Part shown: positions 1 to 12,075 of the stretch, piece by piece
Layout of the letters: each line of letters opens with the position of its first letter
How positions within the stretch are numbered: the stretch's first letter is position 1
DNA from: Octopus sinensis
Lineage: Eukaryota
Reading direction: 5' to 3'
Length of the DNA: 13,276 bases
NCBI RefSeq assembly: GCF_006345805.1
Contig: NW_021826300.1
Location: 1 to 13,276 of the forward strand
The notes under the pieces: model-generated
Seen by the model: the letters and a program-made list of their open reading frames with translations, nothing else
Database searches by the model: none
What the model was told of the DNA's origin: nothing
Program-made: the position numbers and the translations under genes

Positions 1-63
1 GTGGCAGACGAAATACGCTAAACATTTTGCCCGGCGTGCTAACGTTTCTGCCAGCTCACCGCC
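1..63 (-). mobile_element. 5' head of SINE family A, cut by window edge
   Basis: Reverse complement (ggcggtgagctggcagaaacgttagcacgccgggcaaaatg...) matches the heads at 1893 and 10326. Confidence 0.85.
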
Positions 64-120
64 AATGTAATCGACTTACCCTCTCCCCGGGAATTGATGG
101 CCTTGTGCCAAAATTTGAAA
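64..120 (+). mobile_element. 3' fragment of a SINE A-related element with a different tail
   Basis: Begins atgtaatcgactta, as in the SINE A 3' part (10480-10493), then diverges into ccctctcccc...ggccttgtgccaaaatttgaaa. Confidence 0.5.
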
Positions 121-314
121 TAAATAACTACAAGAGAGATTAAGTTAATTCTACATCACTATTATCATTACATCACATCGGATACGGTTTTCAGTTACTG
201 ATATCGTCTGTGTGTCGCCATTTTCTAGTGAGCTGAGCCAGGATACCATAAGGTAAGCCATAAATATAATTTGCCAATAATAACATTCTTAGTTTAATGT
301 CAGAGAAAAGTATA

Positions 315-369
315 GAACCCGGAACCATGAGGTTAAGAACCAAACTTCTTACGACAGCACTATGACTGT
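315..369 (-). mobile_element. Degenerate SINE family B head
   Basis: gaacccggaaccatg is the reverse complement of catggttccgggttc in SINE B heads (3970-3984); flanking similarity is decayed. Confidence 0.55.
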
Positions 370-391
370 TCATATATATATATATATATAT

Positions 392-493
392 TTAATCAAT
401 ATAGGGTGGCAAAAAATTTTGTAGAATTTTTTTGCCACCAGCGGCCTAGTGGGAAAAAATTAAATAGTCATAGACCATTTATAAGTTCAACAT
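392..493 (-). repeat. 102-bp inverted segment of the 499-bp unit
   Basis: Reverse complement matches 663-764 and 1162-1263 (1 mismatch to copy 2, 3 to copy 1). Confidence 0.95.
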
Positions 494-510
494 TGGTTTA
501 CCATTAAACA

Positions 511-539
511 ATAGATGAAACGGTGCACCGTATAAGAAA
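511..539 (+). ncRNA. 3' half of hammerhead motif (CUGANGA half absent at the inversion junction)
   Basis: ATAGAT-GAAA-CGGTGCACCG-TA-TAAGAAA, identical to the complete copies. Confidence 0.7.
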
Positions 540-924
540 TTACAGGGTAAATGTTTTTTTTAATTTTCTCCTGGTTTGCGGAATTAATGTTATTTTGCGG
601 TTGAAGCTTTGGCTGTTATTTCTAGTGGGTGAATGGCCTATTATGGCCGTTCCTTGATTGTGATGTTGAACTCATAAATGGTATATGACTATTTAATTTT
701 TTCCCACTAGGCCGCTGGTGGAAAAAAAATTCTACAAAATTTTTTGCCACCCTATATTGATTAATTATGAATTTTCTGGTTAATTCCGTAATGGAATCGG
801 CGGCTTATATTTATTTGCTGCCGATAAATTTGGCGCGAGTGCGATGATTTGAAAATTTTAGGTCAGATATTGCCGAGGCAGGGAGAGAAGTGCCTCGTGA
901 AAATATCTGTTCCGATCTGGCTGT

Positions 925-1038
925 TTTCTTACTGACGAATCTATCGGCCTATGGAAGATTGGCTTGATTTAATTTAATCAATTTAATCAGGTTGGTTTAC
1001 CATTAAACAATAGATGAAACGGTGCACCGTATAAGAAA
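925..1038 (+). ncRNA. Type I hammerhead ribozyme, copy 1
   Basis: Stem I TTTCTTA 925-931 / TAAGAAA 1032-1038; core CTGACGA 932-938; stem II ATCTAT 939-944 / ATAGAT 1010-1015; GAAA 1016-1019; stem III palindrome ACGGTGCACCGT 1019-1030; GUA triplet, predicted cleavage after 1031. Confidence 0.88.
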
Positions 1039-1423
1039 TTACAGGGTAAATGTTTTTTTTAATTTTCTCCTGGTTTGCGGGATTAATGTTATTTTGCGGT
1101 TGAAGCTTTGGCTGTTATTTCTAGTGGGTGAATGGCCTATTATGGCCGTTCCTTGATTGTGATGTTGAACTTATAAATGGTCTATGACTATTTAATTTTT
1201 TCCCACTAGGCCGCTGGTGGCAAAAAAATTCTACAAAATTTTTTGCCACCCTATATTTATTAATTATGAATTTTCTGGTTAATTCCGTAATGGAATCGGC
1301 GGCTTATATTTATTTGCTGCCGATAAATTTGGCGCGAGTGCGATGATTTGAAAATTTTAGGTCAGATATTGCCGAGGCAGGGAGAGAAGTGCCTTGTGAA
1401 AATATCTGTTCCGATCTGGCTGT

Positions 1424-1537
1424 TTTCTTACTGACGAATCTATCGGCCTATGGAAGATTGGCTTGATTTAATTTAATCAATTTAATCAGGTTGGTTTACC
1501 ATTAAACAATAGATGAAACGGTGCACCGTATAAGAAA
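1424..1537 (+). ncRNA. Type I hammerhead ribozyme, copy 2
   Basis: Same as copy 1 shifted by 499: CTGACGA 1431-1437, GAAA 1515-1518, predicted cleavage after 1530, TAAGAAA 1531-1537. Confidence 0.88.
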
Positions 1538-1657
1538 TTACAGGGTAAATGTTTTTTTTAATTTTCTCCTGGTTTGCGGAATTAATGTTATTTTGCGGTT
1601 GAAGCTTTGGCTGTTATTTCTAGTGGGTGAATGGCCTATTATGGCCGTTCCTTGATT

Positions 1658-1660
<3 letters not shown>

Positions 1661-1693
<33 letters not shown>

Positions 1694-1825
1694 GTGTGTG
1701 TGTGGTGTGTGTGTTGTGTGTTGTGCTGCGTGTTGTGTGGTTGTCTTAACGTATGTCTATGCGTATATATGGTGTGTGTGTGTATGTATATATATATACA
1801 TATTTGTATGTGTAATATATAGTAT

Positions 1826-1870
<45 letters not shown>

Positions 1871-1890
1871 CAAACATATATACATACATA
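1661..1890. repeat. (TA)n/(TG)n compound microsatellite
   Basis: Direct reading. Confidence 0.9.
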
Positions 1891-1892
1891 AA

Positions 1893-2119
1893 GGCGGCGA
1901 GCTGGCAGAAACGTTAGCACGTCGGGCGAAATGCTTAGCGGTATTTCGTCTGCCGTTATGCTGTGAGTTCAAATTCCGCCGAGGTCCACTTTGCCTTTCA
2001 TCCTTTCGGGGTCGATAAATTAAGTACCAGTTACGCACTGGGGTCGATGTAATCGATTTACTCCCTTTGTCTGTCCTTGTTTGTTCCCTCTATGTTTAGC
2101 CCCTTGTGGGTAATAAAGA
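1893..2119 (+). mobile_element. tRNA-derived SINE family A, full length (central part resembles the Nin/Deu domain)
   Basis: A-box-like tggcagaaacg, B-box gagttcaaattcc, central gcctttcatcctttcggggtcgataaattaagtacc. Near-identical copy at 10326-10550. Domain name recalled, not searched. Confidence 0.85.
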
Positions 2120-2382
2120 TATATAAATATATGTGTGTTTGTGTATAAATGTATGTATGCATTTATTACAGAGTAGCTCATTCTAAAATCTCTGTAAGAG
2201 GTGCAAGTAGGAGCTCTAGTGGAAAGTAATGTTTGTTGCTACTTCAAACATGGCTGTCACGTATGGAACGACGTTACTACCCTTAACTACTTGCAAACCA
2301 TGGGACTCACAGTAACAATATTTTTTGTCGACAAAACAAATTTAAACAAACATTAATGAAGCAGTGTTTTATTATTTTCTAT

Positions 2383-2660
2383 TCTTTTATCTCTTCTCAC
2401 TCATTAGACTGCGGCCATACTGGAGCACTGCCTTGAGAATTTTAGTCGAACTAATCGAAACAAGAGCTTATTTTCTTTCTAAGCCTGGTTCTTATCCCAT
2501 CGATATCTTTGGCTCAACTGCTAAGTTACGGGGATGAAAACCCTTCCAACACCCATCGTCAGGCGGTAGTGGAGGACAAGTTAGCCCCTTGTGGGTAGTA
2601 AAGAAATAGGTAGTGGGGGACAAGCAAAAAGCCACACACACTCACAACACACACACACAC
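2383..2660 (-). mobile_element. Diverged 3' half of a SINE B-like element, interrupted at 2581-2608
   Basis: ctgcggccatactggagcactgcc and ctaagttacgggga are reverse complements of SINE B 3' motifs (about 4308-4332 and 10967-10980); ends in (CA)n. Confidence 0.75.
2581..2608 (+). mobile_element. 28-bp 5'-truncated SINE A tail with 16-bp TSD
   Basis: ttagccccttgtgggtagtaaag matches SINE A 3' ends; flanked by ggtagtggaggacaag (2565-2580) and ggtagtgggggacaag (2609-2624). Confidence 0.8.
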
Positions 2661-2681
2661 TCATGCATATGTATATATGAC

Positions 2682-2752
2682 GGGGACGTAGCTCAGTGGT
2701 AGAGCGTTCGCTTTGCATGAGAAAGGCTCCGGATTCGATCCCGGCTTCTCCA
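2682..2752 (+). tRNA. tRNA-Ala(TGC), probably a pseudogene or degenerate copy
   Basis: Cloverleaf GGGGACG-TA-GCTC-AGTGGTA-GAGC-G-TTCGC-TTTGCAT-GAGAA-AGGCT-CCGGA-TTCGATC-CCGG-CTTCTCC-A. Anticodon TGC 2714-2716, G3.U70 Ala determinant. Mismatches in acceptor and anticodon stems; T arm one base short with G53>A. Confidence 0.85.
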
Positions 2753-2757
2753 AAGTG

Positions 2758-2761
2758 TTTT
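2758..2761 (+). terminator. Putative Pol III terminator (TTTT)
   Basis: T4 run 5 nt downstream of the tRNA 3' end. Confidence 0.45.
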
Positions 2762-2767
2762 ATTATA

Positions 2768-2796
2768 GGCGTAGGAGTGTCTGTGTGGTAAGTAGC
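2768..2796 (+). mobile_element. 5' end of SINE B copy split by an insertion (continues at 3942)
   Basis: ggcgtaggagtgtctgtgtggtaagtagc matches the intact head at 11680; gtgtggtaagtagc is duplicated at 2783-2796 and 3942-3955. Confidence 0.8.
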
Positions 2797-3007
2797 CAAA
2801 TGGACTATTAAGTCCAATAATTGTCGTTTTCGCTAGAAAAAAAAAAAAAAGAACAATGTTTCAGAGAAGTAGAAAATCGGTGGGCTTTTTCTGCCTTCTC
2901 TCATCAATATCATCCTTGTTTCATCATTCACCTCATCAATGTATATGTCCAGCCCGCAAGCTACTCTTTGTAATGTCTTTATGGCAAATCTTAATGAAAT
3001 AAAGTAG

Positions 3008-3560
3008 CCAGCGGAGGTAGGATTTGAACTGTTATCCTCATTAAGAGGAAAGAAATATTATAGGTTTCCCGGTTTTGGGGATAATCAATTTATTACTGCG
3101 TGAAAAATTAAATTTTAGCCGTTGTAGGCTCTATTGTGGCACCCGTCCCTAGCGTCGGTGAGATTTGAACTGTTGTTCTCGTTGTGAGGAAAAAAATATT
3201 ATAGGTTTCCCGTTTTGGGGAATTCTATATTTTTATTACTGTGTGAAAAATTTAATTTCGAACATTGTAGGCTTTATCGTTACGTCTCGCCCCCCCCCCC
3301 CCATGGGGGTGAGATTTGAACTGTTGTCCTCGTTGTGAGAAAAAAAAATTATAGGTTTCCCATTTTTGGGGATTCTGTATTTTTATTATTGTGTGGAAAA
3401 AATAAAATTAATTTCGAACGTTGTAGGCATTGTTGTTACGTCTCGCCCCCCAGCGGGGGTGGGATTTGAACTGTTGTCCTCGTTAAGAGAAAAAAAAAAG
3501 TAAAAAATTATAGGTTTCCCATTTTCTGGGATTAAATTGTGTATAAATTATTTCGAACGA
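3008..3560 (+). repeat. Imperfect tandem repeat, unit about 141-151 bp, about 3.7 copies
   Basis: gatttgaactgtt at 3021, 3162, 3313 and 3463; each unit also has ttataggtttccc and the first three have ttgtaggc. Confidence 0.9.
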
Positions 3561-3562
3561 AT

Positions 3563-3864
3563 ATGTCGGTCGAAATAATTCAAGAAACAAACCAGCTGCA
3601 TGAGCCAGCAAAAAAGTTCGCGGCAGTAGCCGCTGTATCTTGTAAATATGTTGTAATAGAAGCGGAGAAGTTCTTCGAGATTTTTGAGAGAATGAAAGAG
3701 GAGGGTGGGGATATAAAGATCTCACCCTCCCCTTCTGTGGAAAATCTGAAGACAAGGACGGTCGTTTACAAAACGTACAGTCCTTCATCGAAAAAATTCA
3801 AGCACTTCGAAGAGTGCGAAATAGAAAAATGCCTGGCCCCTATATGGAAACAAGTAAAAGAGTA
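3563..3864 (+). pseudogene. Truncated ORF, possibly the N-terminus of a non-LTR retrotransposon ORF1 (L1/Tx1-like)
   Basis: About 100 codons of normal-complexity, K/E-rich protein (MSVEIIQETN...NLKTRTVVYKTYSPSSKKFKHFEECEIEKCLAPIWKQVK) right after the monomer repeats, then runs into microsatellite. Family call is inference from architecture. Confidence 0.5.
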
Positions 3865-3889
3865 TATAAATAAATATATATATATATAT

Positions 3890-3942
3890 ACACACACACA
3901 CAACGGGTTCTTAATTTACGCGTCCCACATCCACTCACAAGG
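3890..3942 (-). mobile_element. Inverted internal fragment of SINE B
   Basis: Reverse complement ccttgtgagtggatgtgggacgcgtaaattaagaacccgttg resembles 4045-4090. Confidence 0.6.
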
Positions 3943-4360
3943 TGTGGTAAGTAGCTTGCTTACCAACCACATGGTTCCGGGTTCAGTCCCACTGCGTGGC
4001 ACCTTGGGCAAGTGTCTTCTACTACAGCCTCAGGCCGTCCAAAGCCTTGTGAGTAGATTTGGTAGACGTAAACTGAAAGAAGCCCGTCGTATGTATATAT
4101 ATATATGTGTGTGTGTGTGTGTATGTGTGTGTGTGTGTGTACATGTATGTGTGTGTTTGTGTGTCTGTGTTTGTTCCCACCAACATCGCTTGACAACCGA
4201 TGCTGGTGTCTTTATGTCCCCGTAACTTCGCGGTTCGGCAAAAAGGACTGATAGAATAAGTACTGGGCTTACAAAGAATAAGTCCTGGGGTCGATTTGCT
4301 CGACTAATGGCAGTGCTCCAGCATGGCCGCAGTTAAATGACTGAAACAAGTAAAAGAGTA
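3942..4360 (+). mobile_element. tRNA-derived SINE family B body (CORE-like central motif, internal microsatellite)
   Basis: B-box gggttcagtccc, central accttgggcaagtg, internal (TA)/(TG)n, tail gactgaaacaagtaaaagag; homologous to 11680-12075. Confidence 0.85.
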
Positions 4361-9870: not shown

Positions 9871-10325
9871 GTAGATACGTTTATATCAACAGTAAAATTA
9901 AGTATTCTTTATATGCGTTCAGTTTATGTCGTTAGATGCCCTCTACATTCTAGATAGGTGTATGTTGGGGGGTTGTGTTTGTGTATCTGCATGTGTGTGA
10001 GTGTGTGTGTGTATGTGTGTGTGTGTGTTTTAAATAAACAAACGCATCAGAATTTGCTCAATACATATGCTGGTTCATATTTATTTCTCGGGATTTGATT
10101 GTTCCTTTCGTACCTAATCAGATTTTCCCAGCGCGCACGATCCTTCCGAACAGATTAATACGTACATTGATACGAATGGGAGACATTAATACGTATAGGA
10201 GAACATCCTTGCCGATTGAGGGAATATAGGCATGCATCGACATATTTTCGGTTTCATTGGTCGGTTTGGGGTTATGATATAATAGTCGAAAACGTAGCAC
10301 CAGTAATCTCTTGAGATGTGGGCTA

Positions 10326-10550
10326 GGCGGCGAGCTGGCAGAAACGTTAGCACGCCGGGCGAAATGCGTAGCCGTATTTCGTCTGCCATTATGTTCTGAG
10401 TTCAAATTCGGCCGAGGTCGACTTTGCCTTTCATCCTTTCGGGGTCGATAAATTAAGTACCAGTTACGCACTGGGGTCGATGTAATCGACTTAATCCCTT
10501 TGTCTGTCTTTGTTTGTCCTCTCTGTGTTTAGCCCCTTGTGGGTAGTAAA
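10326..10550 (+). mobile_element. SINE family A, full length, fused at its 3' end to a SINE B body
   Basis: Aligns with 1893-2119 along its length. Confidence 0.85.
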
Positions 10551-10838: not shown

Positions 10839-10850
10839 TATGTGTGTGTG

Positions 10851-10884
<34 letters not shown>

Positions 10885-11130
10885 TGTATGTATGCGTGTG
10901 TATATGTTTGTGCGTCTGTGTCTGTACCCCGAATATCACTTGTCAGCCGATGCTGGTGTGTTTACGTCCCCGTAACTTAGCGGTTAGGCAAAAAGAGACC
11001 GATAGAATAAGTACTAGGCTTACAAAGAATAAATCCCTGGGTTCTATTTTTTCTCGACTAAATTCGGTGCTGCAACATGGCCACTGTCACATGACTGAAA
11101 CAAGTAAAAGAGTCAAAAGAGTCAAAAGAG
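10547..11130 (+). mobile_element. Headless SINE family B with a unique insert in its microsatellite
   Basis: taaactgaaagaggcccgtcgtat matches 4069-4092; 3' half 10920-11130 matches 4170-4360; tail (AAAAGAGTC)n. Confidence 0.75.
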
Positions 11131-11679: not shown

Positions 11680-12075
11680 GGCGCAGGAGTGGCTGTGTGG
11701 TAAGTAGCTTGTTTACCAACCACATGGTTCCGGGTTCAGGCCCACTGCGTGGCATCTTGGGCAAGTGTCTTCTGCTATAGCCTCGGGCCGACCAAAGCCT
11801 TGTGAGTGGATTTGGTAGACGGAAACTGAAAGAAGCCTGTCGTATATATGTATATATATGTATGTGTGTGTATATGTTTGTGTGTCTGTGTTTGTCCCCC
11901 TAGCATTGCTTGACAACCGGTGCTGGTGTGTTTACGTCCCTGTCACTTAGTGGCTCGGCAAAAGAGACCGATAGAATAAGTACTGGGCTTACAAAGAATA
12001 AGTCCCGGGGTCGATTTGCTCGACTGAAACAAATGACTGAAATAAGTAAAAGAGTAAAGAGTAAAGAGTAAGAGT
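11680..12075 (+). mobile_element. SINE family B, near full length with a small 3' internal deletion
   Basis: Head ggcgcaggagtggctgtgtggtaag (A box), gggttcaggccc (B box); lacks the ggcagtgctccagcatggccgcag segment near 12025; tail (AAAGAGT)n. Confidence 0.88.

What the first reader, a model, noticed from the sequence alone, without database searches (positions are those of the whole stretch)
372..1690. Inversion geometry of the array matches a twin-priming-like insertion into (TA)n
Seen: copy 3 stops at ...ttgattgtgAT (1660-1662). The exact next 102 nt of the unit (atgttgaac...attgattaa) appear inverted at 392-493, and both outer ends abut (TA)n. The inverted piece matches copy 2 at three diagnostic sites and copy 1 at one, so it looks like the continuation of copy 3 rather than a duplicate of either. 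Established: L1 twin priming gives this arrangement, and Penelope-like elements often have inverted partial terminal repeats. Inference: one reverse-transcription event primed from both ends of a break in a TA microsatellite.
Basis: partly seen in the sequence, partly recalled or inferred. Interest (0 to 1): 0.7.

Follow-up and report, generated by a model that had tools for sequence, protein, structure and literature searches.

The report
Ribozyme retroelement with double-primed insertion scar
This is a short, non-coding jumping repeat, probably from an octopus, that carries a predicted self-cutting RNA motif (hammerhead ribozyme) and sits in an AT microsatellite with junctions suggesting both broken DNA ends copied the same RNA, a clue to how such elements and their Penelope-type helpers insert.

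Summary
A 499-bp unit is repeated 2.34 times (493-1662). The next 102 nt of the unit sit inverted at 392-493, and the whole lies between (AT)10 and (AT)15. The twin-priming geometry works only if the RNA is that same strand. So this is a non-autonomous hammerhead repeat (non-LTR retrozyme type), probably from Octopus, with the layout known for Penelope-like elements (PLEs): head-to-head inversion, one-sided 3' 'tail', (TA)n target. It is not L1-type: there is no poly(A) and no ORF. Best reading: a PLE enzyme primed both target ends at two internal RNA sites 102 nt apart, and the distal copy stopped where the proximal one began. The inverted piece is then a bare tail, about three times the usual 30-40 nt. 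This asymmetry mildly favours an uncleaved linear multimer as template over the circular RNA proposed for retrozymes. The diagnostic-site argument is weak. This is one locus: no sister copies, reads or helper element could be examined.

The parts
372..391 (.). (AT)10, left half of the target microsatellite; inferred primer for the short cDNA
392..493 (-). Inverted 102-nt piece = unit positions 1162-1263 equivalent; read as the PLE-type 'tail' between two initiation sites. 392 is the distal 3' end (232 nt after the predicted ribozyme cut); T493 is a 1-nt overlap with copy 1
493..991 (+). Unit copy 1 (499 bp, 36.5% GC), 5'-truncated inside the long helix II insert of a hammerhead
493..539 (+). 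3' half of a hammerhead (GAAA at 517, helix III, predicted cut after 532, 3' strand of helix I)
   Evidence: identical to 992-1038; positions minus 499
925..1038 (+). Complete type I hammerhead 1: helix I 925-931/1032-1038 (7 bp), CUGACGA 932-938, helix II 939-944/1010-1015 (6 bp) with a 65-nt hairpin insert, GAAA 1016, helix III 1019-1030 (perfect 12-nt palindrome), GUA with predicted cut after 1031
992..1490 (+). Unit copy 2
1174..1250 (+). Two predicted hairpins inside the tail interval (1174-1194, 1216-1250); the copy-1 private changes at 683 and 722 weaken them
1424..1537 (+). Complete type I hammerhead 2, predicted cut after 1530
1491..1662 (+). Partial copy 3; its end (1660-1662) is the proximal 3' end, 130-132 nt after the predicted cut
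1661..1690 (.). (AT)15, right half of the target microsatellite; inferred primer for the long cDNA; followed by a mixed TG/TA tract to about 1890

Best explanation
The insert is a non-autonomous hammerhead-ribozyme retroelement (non-LTR retrozyme type, PLE-related) integrated in trans by a Penelope-like RT/GIY-YIG protein. SHOWN in sequence: the tandem unit, the hammerhead motif and its strand, two 3' ends 102 nt apart facing outward, 5' ends joined head-to-head at 493, and the (AT)n target. INFERRED: (1) a + strand transcript covering several units is bound by the PLE protein, which nicks both strands of (AT)n; (2) the right target end primes at the proximal site (1660/1662) and copies 1170 nt, across three hammerhead cut sites; (3) the left target end primes at the distal site (1263 equivalent), copies 102 nt and stops where the proximal primer sits; (4) the two cDNA 3' ends are joined with 1 nt of overlap and filled in; (5) the few differences between copies arose mostly afterwards. 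One RT was blocked at the other's start site while the second passed both sites twice, so an uncleaved linear multimer is the more economical template. My split among templates: linear about 0.55, circle about 0.3, later tandem expansion about 0.15.
For: Hammerhead: a descriptor scan finds 2 hits in the whole window, both strands, both in the array on +; 0 of 20,000 unit shuffles are as good and 35 of 20,000 pass the loose descriptor; it is the MFE fold of 915-1050; Rfam Hammerhead_1 aligns all core bases. Helix III is palindromic, a PLE-hammerhead trait (PMC4209133). Strand agreement: B.C RNA gives rc(B).C only for + strand RNA (logic). PLE layout: inverted 5'-truncated copy, 30-40 bp tail at one end, (TA)n preference (PMC8557442; PMC3846280). 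In vitro, an Anolis PLE extends both target strands, starts at two internal RNA sites that bound the tail, needs no homology to the target, prefers AT-rich DNA and uses uncleaved RNA (PMC11167929); its start lies about 85-92 nt downstream of the ribozyme cut (my arithmetic), the same polarity as here. Active Penelope families are listed for O. vulgaris (30 families; PMC13282606), and a (TA)n-targeting, hammerhead-bearing Hydra PLE for O. bimaculoides. In longer RNA contexts the helix I pairs have P <= 0.14 against 0.65-0.90 locally, which fits uncleaved multimers surviving.
Against: Single locus; no sister copy, empty site, read or helper protein could be examined (0 hits; 1 hit, rejected as chance). 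The tail is 102 nt, not 30-40. Rfam score is 16.1 bits against a gathering score of 34 (E 0.23), seen only in a 161-nt search and absent. Position 10.1-11.1 is A-U rather than the canonical G-C. The active fold is disfavoured in 7 of the 8 contexts' wider members (6 wide contexts of 8 tested), so self-cleavage is unproven. No exact match of window motifs to the PLE consensus set of PMC8557442. Microhomologies are short (2 nt, 1 nt, 0 nt). A later DNA inversion gives the same geometry. 4 of 6 copy differences cluster in the 102-nt interval (P = 0.018), which a pure post-insertion clock does not explain.
Confidence: 0.7

Rival explanations
1. Same element and same PLE-type double priming, but the template was a 499-nt circular RNA (self-cleaved, ligated monomer) copied by rolling-circle reverse transcription, as proposed for animal retrozymes.
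For: Exact 499-nt units with no indels and star-like private differences. The monomer between cuts folds as a well-paired circle, 62-65% paired, z about -5 on 40 shuffles. The model is proposed in PMC7229834.
Against: The long cDNA would have to displace the short cDNA and pass its priming complex twice, while the short one could not pass once. The minus strand folds equally well against its shuffles (z -5.6), so folding does not show a circle.
Confidence: 0.2
2. L1-style twin priming by a LINE acting in trans (for example a microsatellite-inserting Tx1 or R4/Dong family), with a chance internal priming site chosen by microhomology.
For: Breakpoint continuity. At the proximal site the (AT)n primer can form 4 pairs including one G-T, reached by 19 of 499 unit positions. 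Dong-R4 and L1-Tx1 families are listed as active in O. vulgaris.
Against: No poly(A) or simple-repeat 3' tail, and a terminal mismatch at the distal primer. 5' inversion is rare in L1 trans-mobilised elements (PMC2912911). The hammerhead links the unit to PLEs.
Confidence: 0.07
3. An ordinary direct insertion (array plus 102 nt) whose first 1168 bp were later inverted at DNA level between the target's AT and the internal AT, which is self-complementary.
For: It yields exactly the observed sequence, including AT at both 492-493 and 1661-1662.
Against: One breakpoint must fall exactly on the insertion's 5' boundary with only 2 nt of homology, whereas head-to-head inversions are routine in PLE insertions.
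Confidence: 0.05
4. Self-priming (fold-back) on an antisense template, the model offered for rotifer Penelope inversions.
For: Head-to-head arrangement as in PMC3846280.
Against: That model rests on palindromes at the inversion junction. Here the longest hairpin arm centred within 480-506 is 5 nt and none is centred on 493; the joined sequences lie 170 nt apart in the unit.
Confidence: 0.03
5. A MITE/foldback DNA transposon with internal tandem repeats, or an assembly artefact.
For: TA-flanked. Microsatellites on both sides can cause mis-joins (general knowledge).
Against: The ends are not inverted repeats: 7 of 30 bases match, at most 13 of 30 over seven offsets. The inverted piece has a base combination found in neither copy, and the 493 junction has only 1 nt of overlap, too little to mislead an assembler (inference).
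Confidence: 0.04

Closest known systems
Animal non-LTR retrozymes (Cervera & de la Pena 2020, PMC7229834; Li et al. 2026 preprint 10.64898/2026.07.22.740005)
   Same: Non-coding, low-GC tandem repeats with one type I hammerhead per unit; well-paired predicted monomer; proposed PLE dependence.
   Different: Unit 499 nt (above the 170-400 nt RNAs of the first paper, within the 51-972 bp of the second); 65-nt insert in helix II; a head-to-head inverted tail and defined priming ends. 'inverted' occurs 0 times in the first paper; 'tail' and 'junction' occur 0 times in the second.
EN+ Penelope-like elements; Anolis PAc/Poseidon (PMC11167929), rotifer Pen2a (PMC3846280)
   Same: Partial tandem, inverted 5'-truncated copy, one-sided tail bounded by two RT start sites downstream of a hammerhead, AT-rich target.
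   Different: No RT/GIY-YIG ORF; tail 102 nt against 30-40; the inverted copy is the tail alone (Pen2a's inverted pLTR is 181 bp); no junction palindrome.
Hydra-clade PLEs, including Hydra-1_Obim (PMC8557442 supplements S1/S2)
   Same: (TA)n target; hammerheads with a short AC..GT helix III, U before GAA in 17 of 25 families and GUA cleavage in 11 of 25 (my count, one duplicate row dropped); present in Octopus.
   Different: No sequence identity found with window motifs; short loop 2. A candidate helper only; Neptune or Penelope/Poseidon are not excluded.
L1 twin priming (Ostertag & Kazazian model, read as described in PMC2912911)
   Same: Two target ends prime on one RNA; the outer end of one piece is continuous with the inner end of the other; short microhomologies.
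   Different: No poly(A), no L1 sequence, no discernible TSD; priming sites expected to be fixed rather than variable.
pDo500 satellite of Dolichopoda crickets (PMC2837043)
   Same: Roughly 500-bp tandem unit with an embedded hammerhead.
   Different: Large satellite (about 5% of one genome) with a compact 49-nt ribozyme; no sequence comparison was made.

Membership tests
Non-LTR retrozyme | Tandem repeat of a few hundred bp | tested here: met
   499 bp x 2.34
Non-LTR retrozyme | Complete type I hammerhead in at least two consecutive units | tested here: met
   925-1038 and 1424-1537; 0 of 20,000 shuffles as good; Rfam match below gathering score
Non-LTR retrozyme | Low GC, no protein coding | tested here: met
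   GC 36.5%; longest stop-free frames 52 aa (+) and 60 aa (-); no Pfam scan of these frames was obtained
Non-LTR retrozyme | Highly self-paired monomer | tested here: met
   62-65% paired, z about -5 on 40 shuffles; the minus strand scores alike
Non-LTR retrozyme | Self-cleavage; expression as linear and circular RNA | not testable with these tools
   Active fold dominant in the 2 local contexts, minor in the 6 wider ones
Non-LTR retrozyme | Dispersed multi-copy family | not testable with these tools
   No eukaryotic genome collection available; no second copy in the window
Autonomous PLE | ORF with RT and GIY-YIG endonuclease | tested here: not met
   No long frame in the element
PLE-type insertion structure | Head-to-head inverted 5'-truncated copy with both 3' ends outward | tested here: met
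PLE-type insertion structure | 30-40 bp tail at one end | tested here: inconclusive
   One-sided extension present but 102 nt; whether both ends are fixed needs sister copies
PLE-type insertion structure | Hammerhead upstream of the 3' ends on the template strand | tested here: met
   Ends 130-132 and 232 nt after the predicted cut
PLE-type insertion structure | AT-rich or (TA)n target | tested here: met
   (AT)10 and (AT)15 in phase; such tracts are common in this window, so this is weak alone
PLE-type insertion structure | Homology to a PLE pseudo-LTR | tested here: inconclusive
   Exact-motif search of one paper's supplement only: no match; Repbase and Dfam not available
L1 twin-primed insertion | Poly(A) at the non-inverted 3' end | tested here: not met
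   junction print
L1 twin-primed insertion | Breakpoint continuity between inverted and non-inverted parts | tested here: met
   0-2 nt overlap
L1 twin-primed insertion | Target-site duplication | tested here: inconclusive
   Cannot be read inside (AT)n
MITE | Terminal inverted repeats | tested here: not met
   7 of 30 matches

The most novel reading that the evidence does not exclude
The locus is a frozen record of the PLE integration step: an RT dimer primes both target strands on one RNA molecule at two fixed sites, and the 'tail' is the cDNA made before the distal RT meets the proximal one. It would also be direct junction evidence that an animal retrozyme is inserted by PLE machinery from an uncleaved linear multimer rather than from its circular RNA, in a cephalopod family with an unusually long tail, a shared TTGATT start signal and an extended hammerhead.
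Probability: 0.35. Interest if true: 0.7.

Novelty: new variant of a known kind. Interest (0 to 1): 0.52.

Why it matters
How PLEs make their inverted ends and tails, and how hammerhead retrozymes get back into the genome, are stated as open questions in the papers read. A tail-only inversion is the limiting case predicted if both target ends prime on one RNA. It turns those questions into a simple survey: fixed ends at two unit positions, and inverted arms that stop at the proximal site more often than chance. The element types and the general layout are already known, which caps the score.

Tried and rejected
Sister copies: two scans of the bacterial and archaeal genome collection gave 0 hits and 1 hit. 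That hit lies inside a 756-codon frame of a SAR86 contig and has no real similarity to the unit (best blastn E 0.011); rejected as chance. No eukaryotic genome or read collection was available, and the viral and metagenome contig collections were not searched, so copy number, empty site and junction support stay unchecked. Rfam over 1-4300 (E <= 1) and over the whole window (gathering) found only the tRNA; the hammerhead appeared only in the narrow search. A Pfam scan of the unit's frames gave no result; the frames were inspected by translation. The ORF at 3563-3871 had no homologue of similar length. Exact window motifs were absent from the PMC8557442 supplement, and FASTA line breaks can hide matches there. 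The text-held supplements of PMC11167929 had no hits for tail, inverted or initiation, so its Fig. S2 on tail ends was not seen. Supplements of the bioRxiv retrozyme preprint could not be read and may list related families. TIR, junction-palindrome and poly(A) tests were negative. A-to-I editing as the source of copy differences: only 1 of 6 is A/G; rejected as a general cause. The TTGATT motif before both ends: 11 of 460 positions would share a 6-mer with the proximal end; this is post hoc and kept as a lead only.

Full report
Observation. Tandem Repeats Finder gives a 499-bp array at 493-1662. Copies 1 (493-991) and 2 (992-1490) differ at 6 of 499 sites; partial copy 3 (1491-1662) equals copy 1 and differs from copy 2 once. 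Copy 3 follows the unit to G1660, and the next AT is shared with (AT)15 at 1661-1690. The reverse complement of 392-493 aligns without gaps to 663-764 and 1162-1263, so it begins at the unit position of 1661. It has the copy-2 base at 3 of 4 diagnostic sites and the copy-1 base at 1. (AT)10 at 372-391 is in phase with the right tract. Continuity within 2 nt has a chance of 5/499. The description is accurate. The SNP inference is weak: the piece carries the majority base everywhere, and a 102-nt stretch would lack private changes with P = 0.62.

What the unit is. A descriptor scan of both strands of the whole window found exactly two type I hammerheads, both on + in the array, at 925-1038 and 1424-1537. 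They have helix I of 7 bp, CUGACGA, helix II of 6 bp enclosing a 65-nt hairpin insert, GAAA, a short helix III and GUA, with predicted cuts after 1031 and 1530; copy 1 starts inside a third. None of 20,000 dinucleotide shuffles of the unit gave a motif this good, and 35 passed the loose descriptor. The hammerhead topology is the MFE fold of 915-1050 (z -2.8). Rfam Hammerhead_1 aligns every core base but scores 16.1 bits against a threshold of 34, with the insert unmatched; wider Rfam searches missed it. Helix III is a perfect 12-nt palindrome, which would allow dimeric cleavage as described for PLE and amphibian hammerheads. Against efficient cleavage: the 10.1-11.1 pair is A-U, and helix I forms with P 0.65-0.90 in the 2 local contexts but at most 0.14 in the 6 wider ones. 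The unit is 36.5% GC and non-coding. These features meet the sequence-level definition of an animal non-LTR retrozyme; activity and expression are untested.

Host. A frame read through an interspersed repeat at 11716-11931 hit an Octopus vulgaris hypothetical protein (66% identity, E 1.4e-23; 1 of 2 hits carried a name). That the flanking repeats are octopus SINEs is recalled, not shown by a call. The target tract lies between a decayed copy of one such repeat (315-356) and a copy of another (from 1892), both of which recur in the window.

Geometry. Twin priming turns an RNA B.C into rc(B).C. The minus strand here reads (AT)n, rc(array), 102-nt piece, (AT)n. This fits only a + strand RNA, array followed by piece, which is the hammerhead strand. 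Both outer ends are 3' ends, 130-132 and 232 nt after the predicted cut, and the two 5' ends meet at 493 with 1 nt of overlap. This is the PLE layout: partial tandem, inverted 5'-truncated copy, a 30-40 bp tail at one end, often in (TA)n. Frangieh et al. showed that an Anolis PLE protein cuts and extends both strands of AT-rich DNA, starts at two internal RNA sites that bound the tail, needs no homology to the target, and uses uncleaved RNA. The inverted piece is therefore best read as a tail with nothing beyond it. At the proximal end an (AT)n primer could form 4 pairs (19 of 499 positions do as well); at the distal end it has a terminal mismatch, unlike L1 priming. Both ends follow TTGATT and lie in mostly unpaired predicted regions, but the motif is a post hoc observation (11 of 460).

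Mechanism. A PLE protein acting in trans nicks both strands of (AT)n. One end primes at the proximal site and copies 1170 nt; the other primes 102 nt further 3' and stops on reaching the first primer. The cDNA ends are joined and filled. Confidence 0.7. On a single circle the long cDNA would have to pass the other priming complex twice while the short one failed once, so I favour an uncleaved linear multimer (about 0.55) over a circle (0.3) or later tandem expansion (0.15). This is an argument from economy on one locus. Unexplained: 4 of 6 copy differences fall in the tail interval (P = 0.018), and two copy-1 changes weaken its hairpins. A candidate helper is the Hydra clade: (TA)n target, a member in O. 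bimaculoides, and similar hammerhead style (U before GAA in 17 of 25 families, GUA in 11 of 25; one duplicate row dropped). No sequence identity was found. Penelope families are also reported as recently active in O. vulgaris.

Rivals. A circular template (0.2), LINE-type twin priming in trans (0.07), a later DNA inversion between two AT dinucleotides, which reproduces the sequence exactly (0.05), MITE or artefact (0.04; ends match at 7 of 30), and self-priming (0.03; no junction palindrome).

Novelty. Retrozymes, PLE inversions and tails are known. In the library searched I found no report of a cephalopod retrozyme, or of PLE-type junctions on a retrozyme array (searches; term counts). Subscription papers, Repbase and Dfam were not searchable, so the family may already be catalogued. 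What I saw of each paper: PMC11167929, parts 1-2 of 4 (abstract, main text, start of methods) and a supplement term search with no hits; the retrozyme preprint, parts 1-3 of 5 (abstract to discussion), supplements not seen; PMC7229834, part 2 of 6 plus passages; PMC8557442, passages and supplement parts 2 and 52 plus term searches; PMC3846280, PMC4209133, PMC8969392, PMC13282606, PMC2837043 and PMC2912911, passages only. Ostertag and Kazazian 2001 was not read; its model is taken from PMC2912911.

Verdict. Observation confirmed; interpretation partly supported and sharpened. It is a hammerhead retrozyme-type element with a Penelope-type, tail-only inversion: a new variant of a known kind, interest 0.52.

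Noticed in passing
window 3008-3532: Tandem repeat of about 150 bp, 3.3 diverged copies (76-80% alike), each with a motif resembling a reversed pol III B-box (recalled) at 3020, 3160, 3311, 3462; no hammerhead and no Rfam match.
   Followed up: partly
window 3563-3871 (+): A 103-codon ATG frame of ordinary composition directly after the 150-bp array; no homologue of similar length.
   Followed up: partly
window 2682-2752 (+): tRNA-Ala(TGC) with several stem mismatches (48.9 bits), immediately followed by a SINE-like head; possibly a pseudogene.
   Followed up: no
window 663-764 versus 1162-1263: 4 of the 6 differences between copies 1 and 2 fall in the 102-nt tail interval (P = 0.018); 3 of 5 polarised changes are C>A or G>T.
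   Followed up: partly
window 654-662, 757-764, 964: TTGATT occurs three times per unit; two of the three lie 2-3 nt before the two outer ends, a possible shared initiation signal.
   Followed up: partly
window 3-63, 1892-2117, 10325-10550; 3920-4360, 10842-11113, 11695-12025, 2380-2534: Two families of SINE-like interspersed repeats, each in several copies and tied to TA/TG microsatellites.
   Followed up: partly
PMC8557442 supplement: In Hydra-clade consensus sequences the distance from the hammerhead to the 3' end seems to fall in two groups (about 90-130 and 150-210 nt), which might reflect a long tail in that clade; judged by eye only.
   Followed up: no
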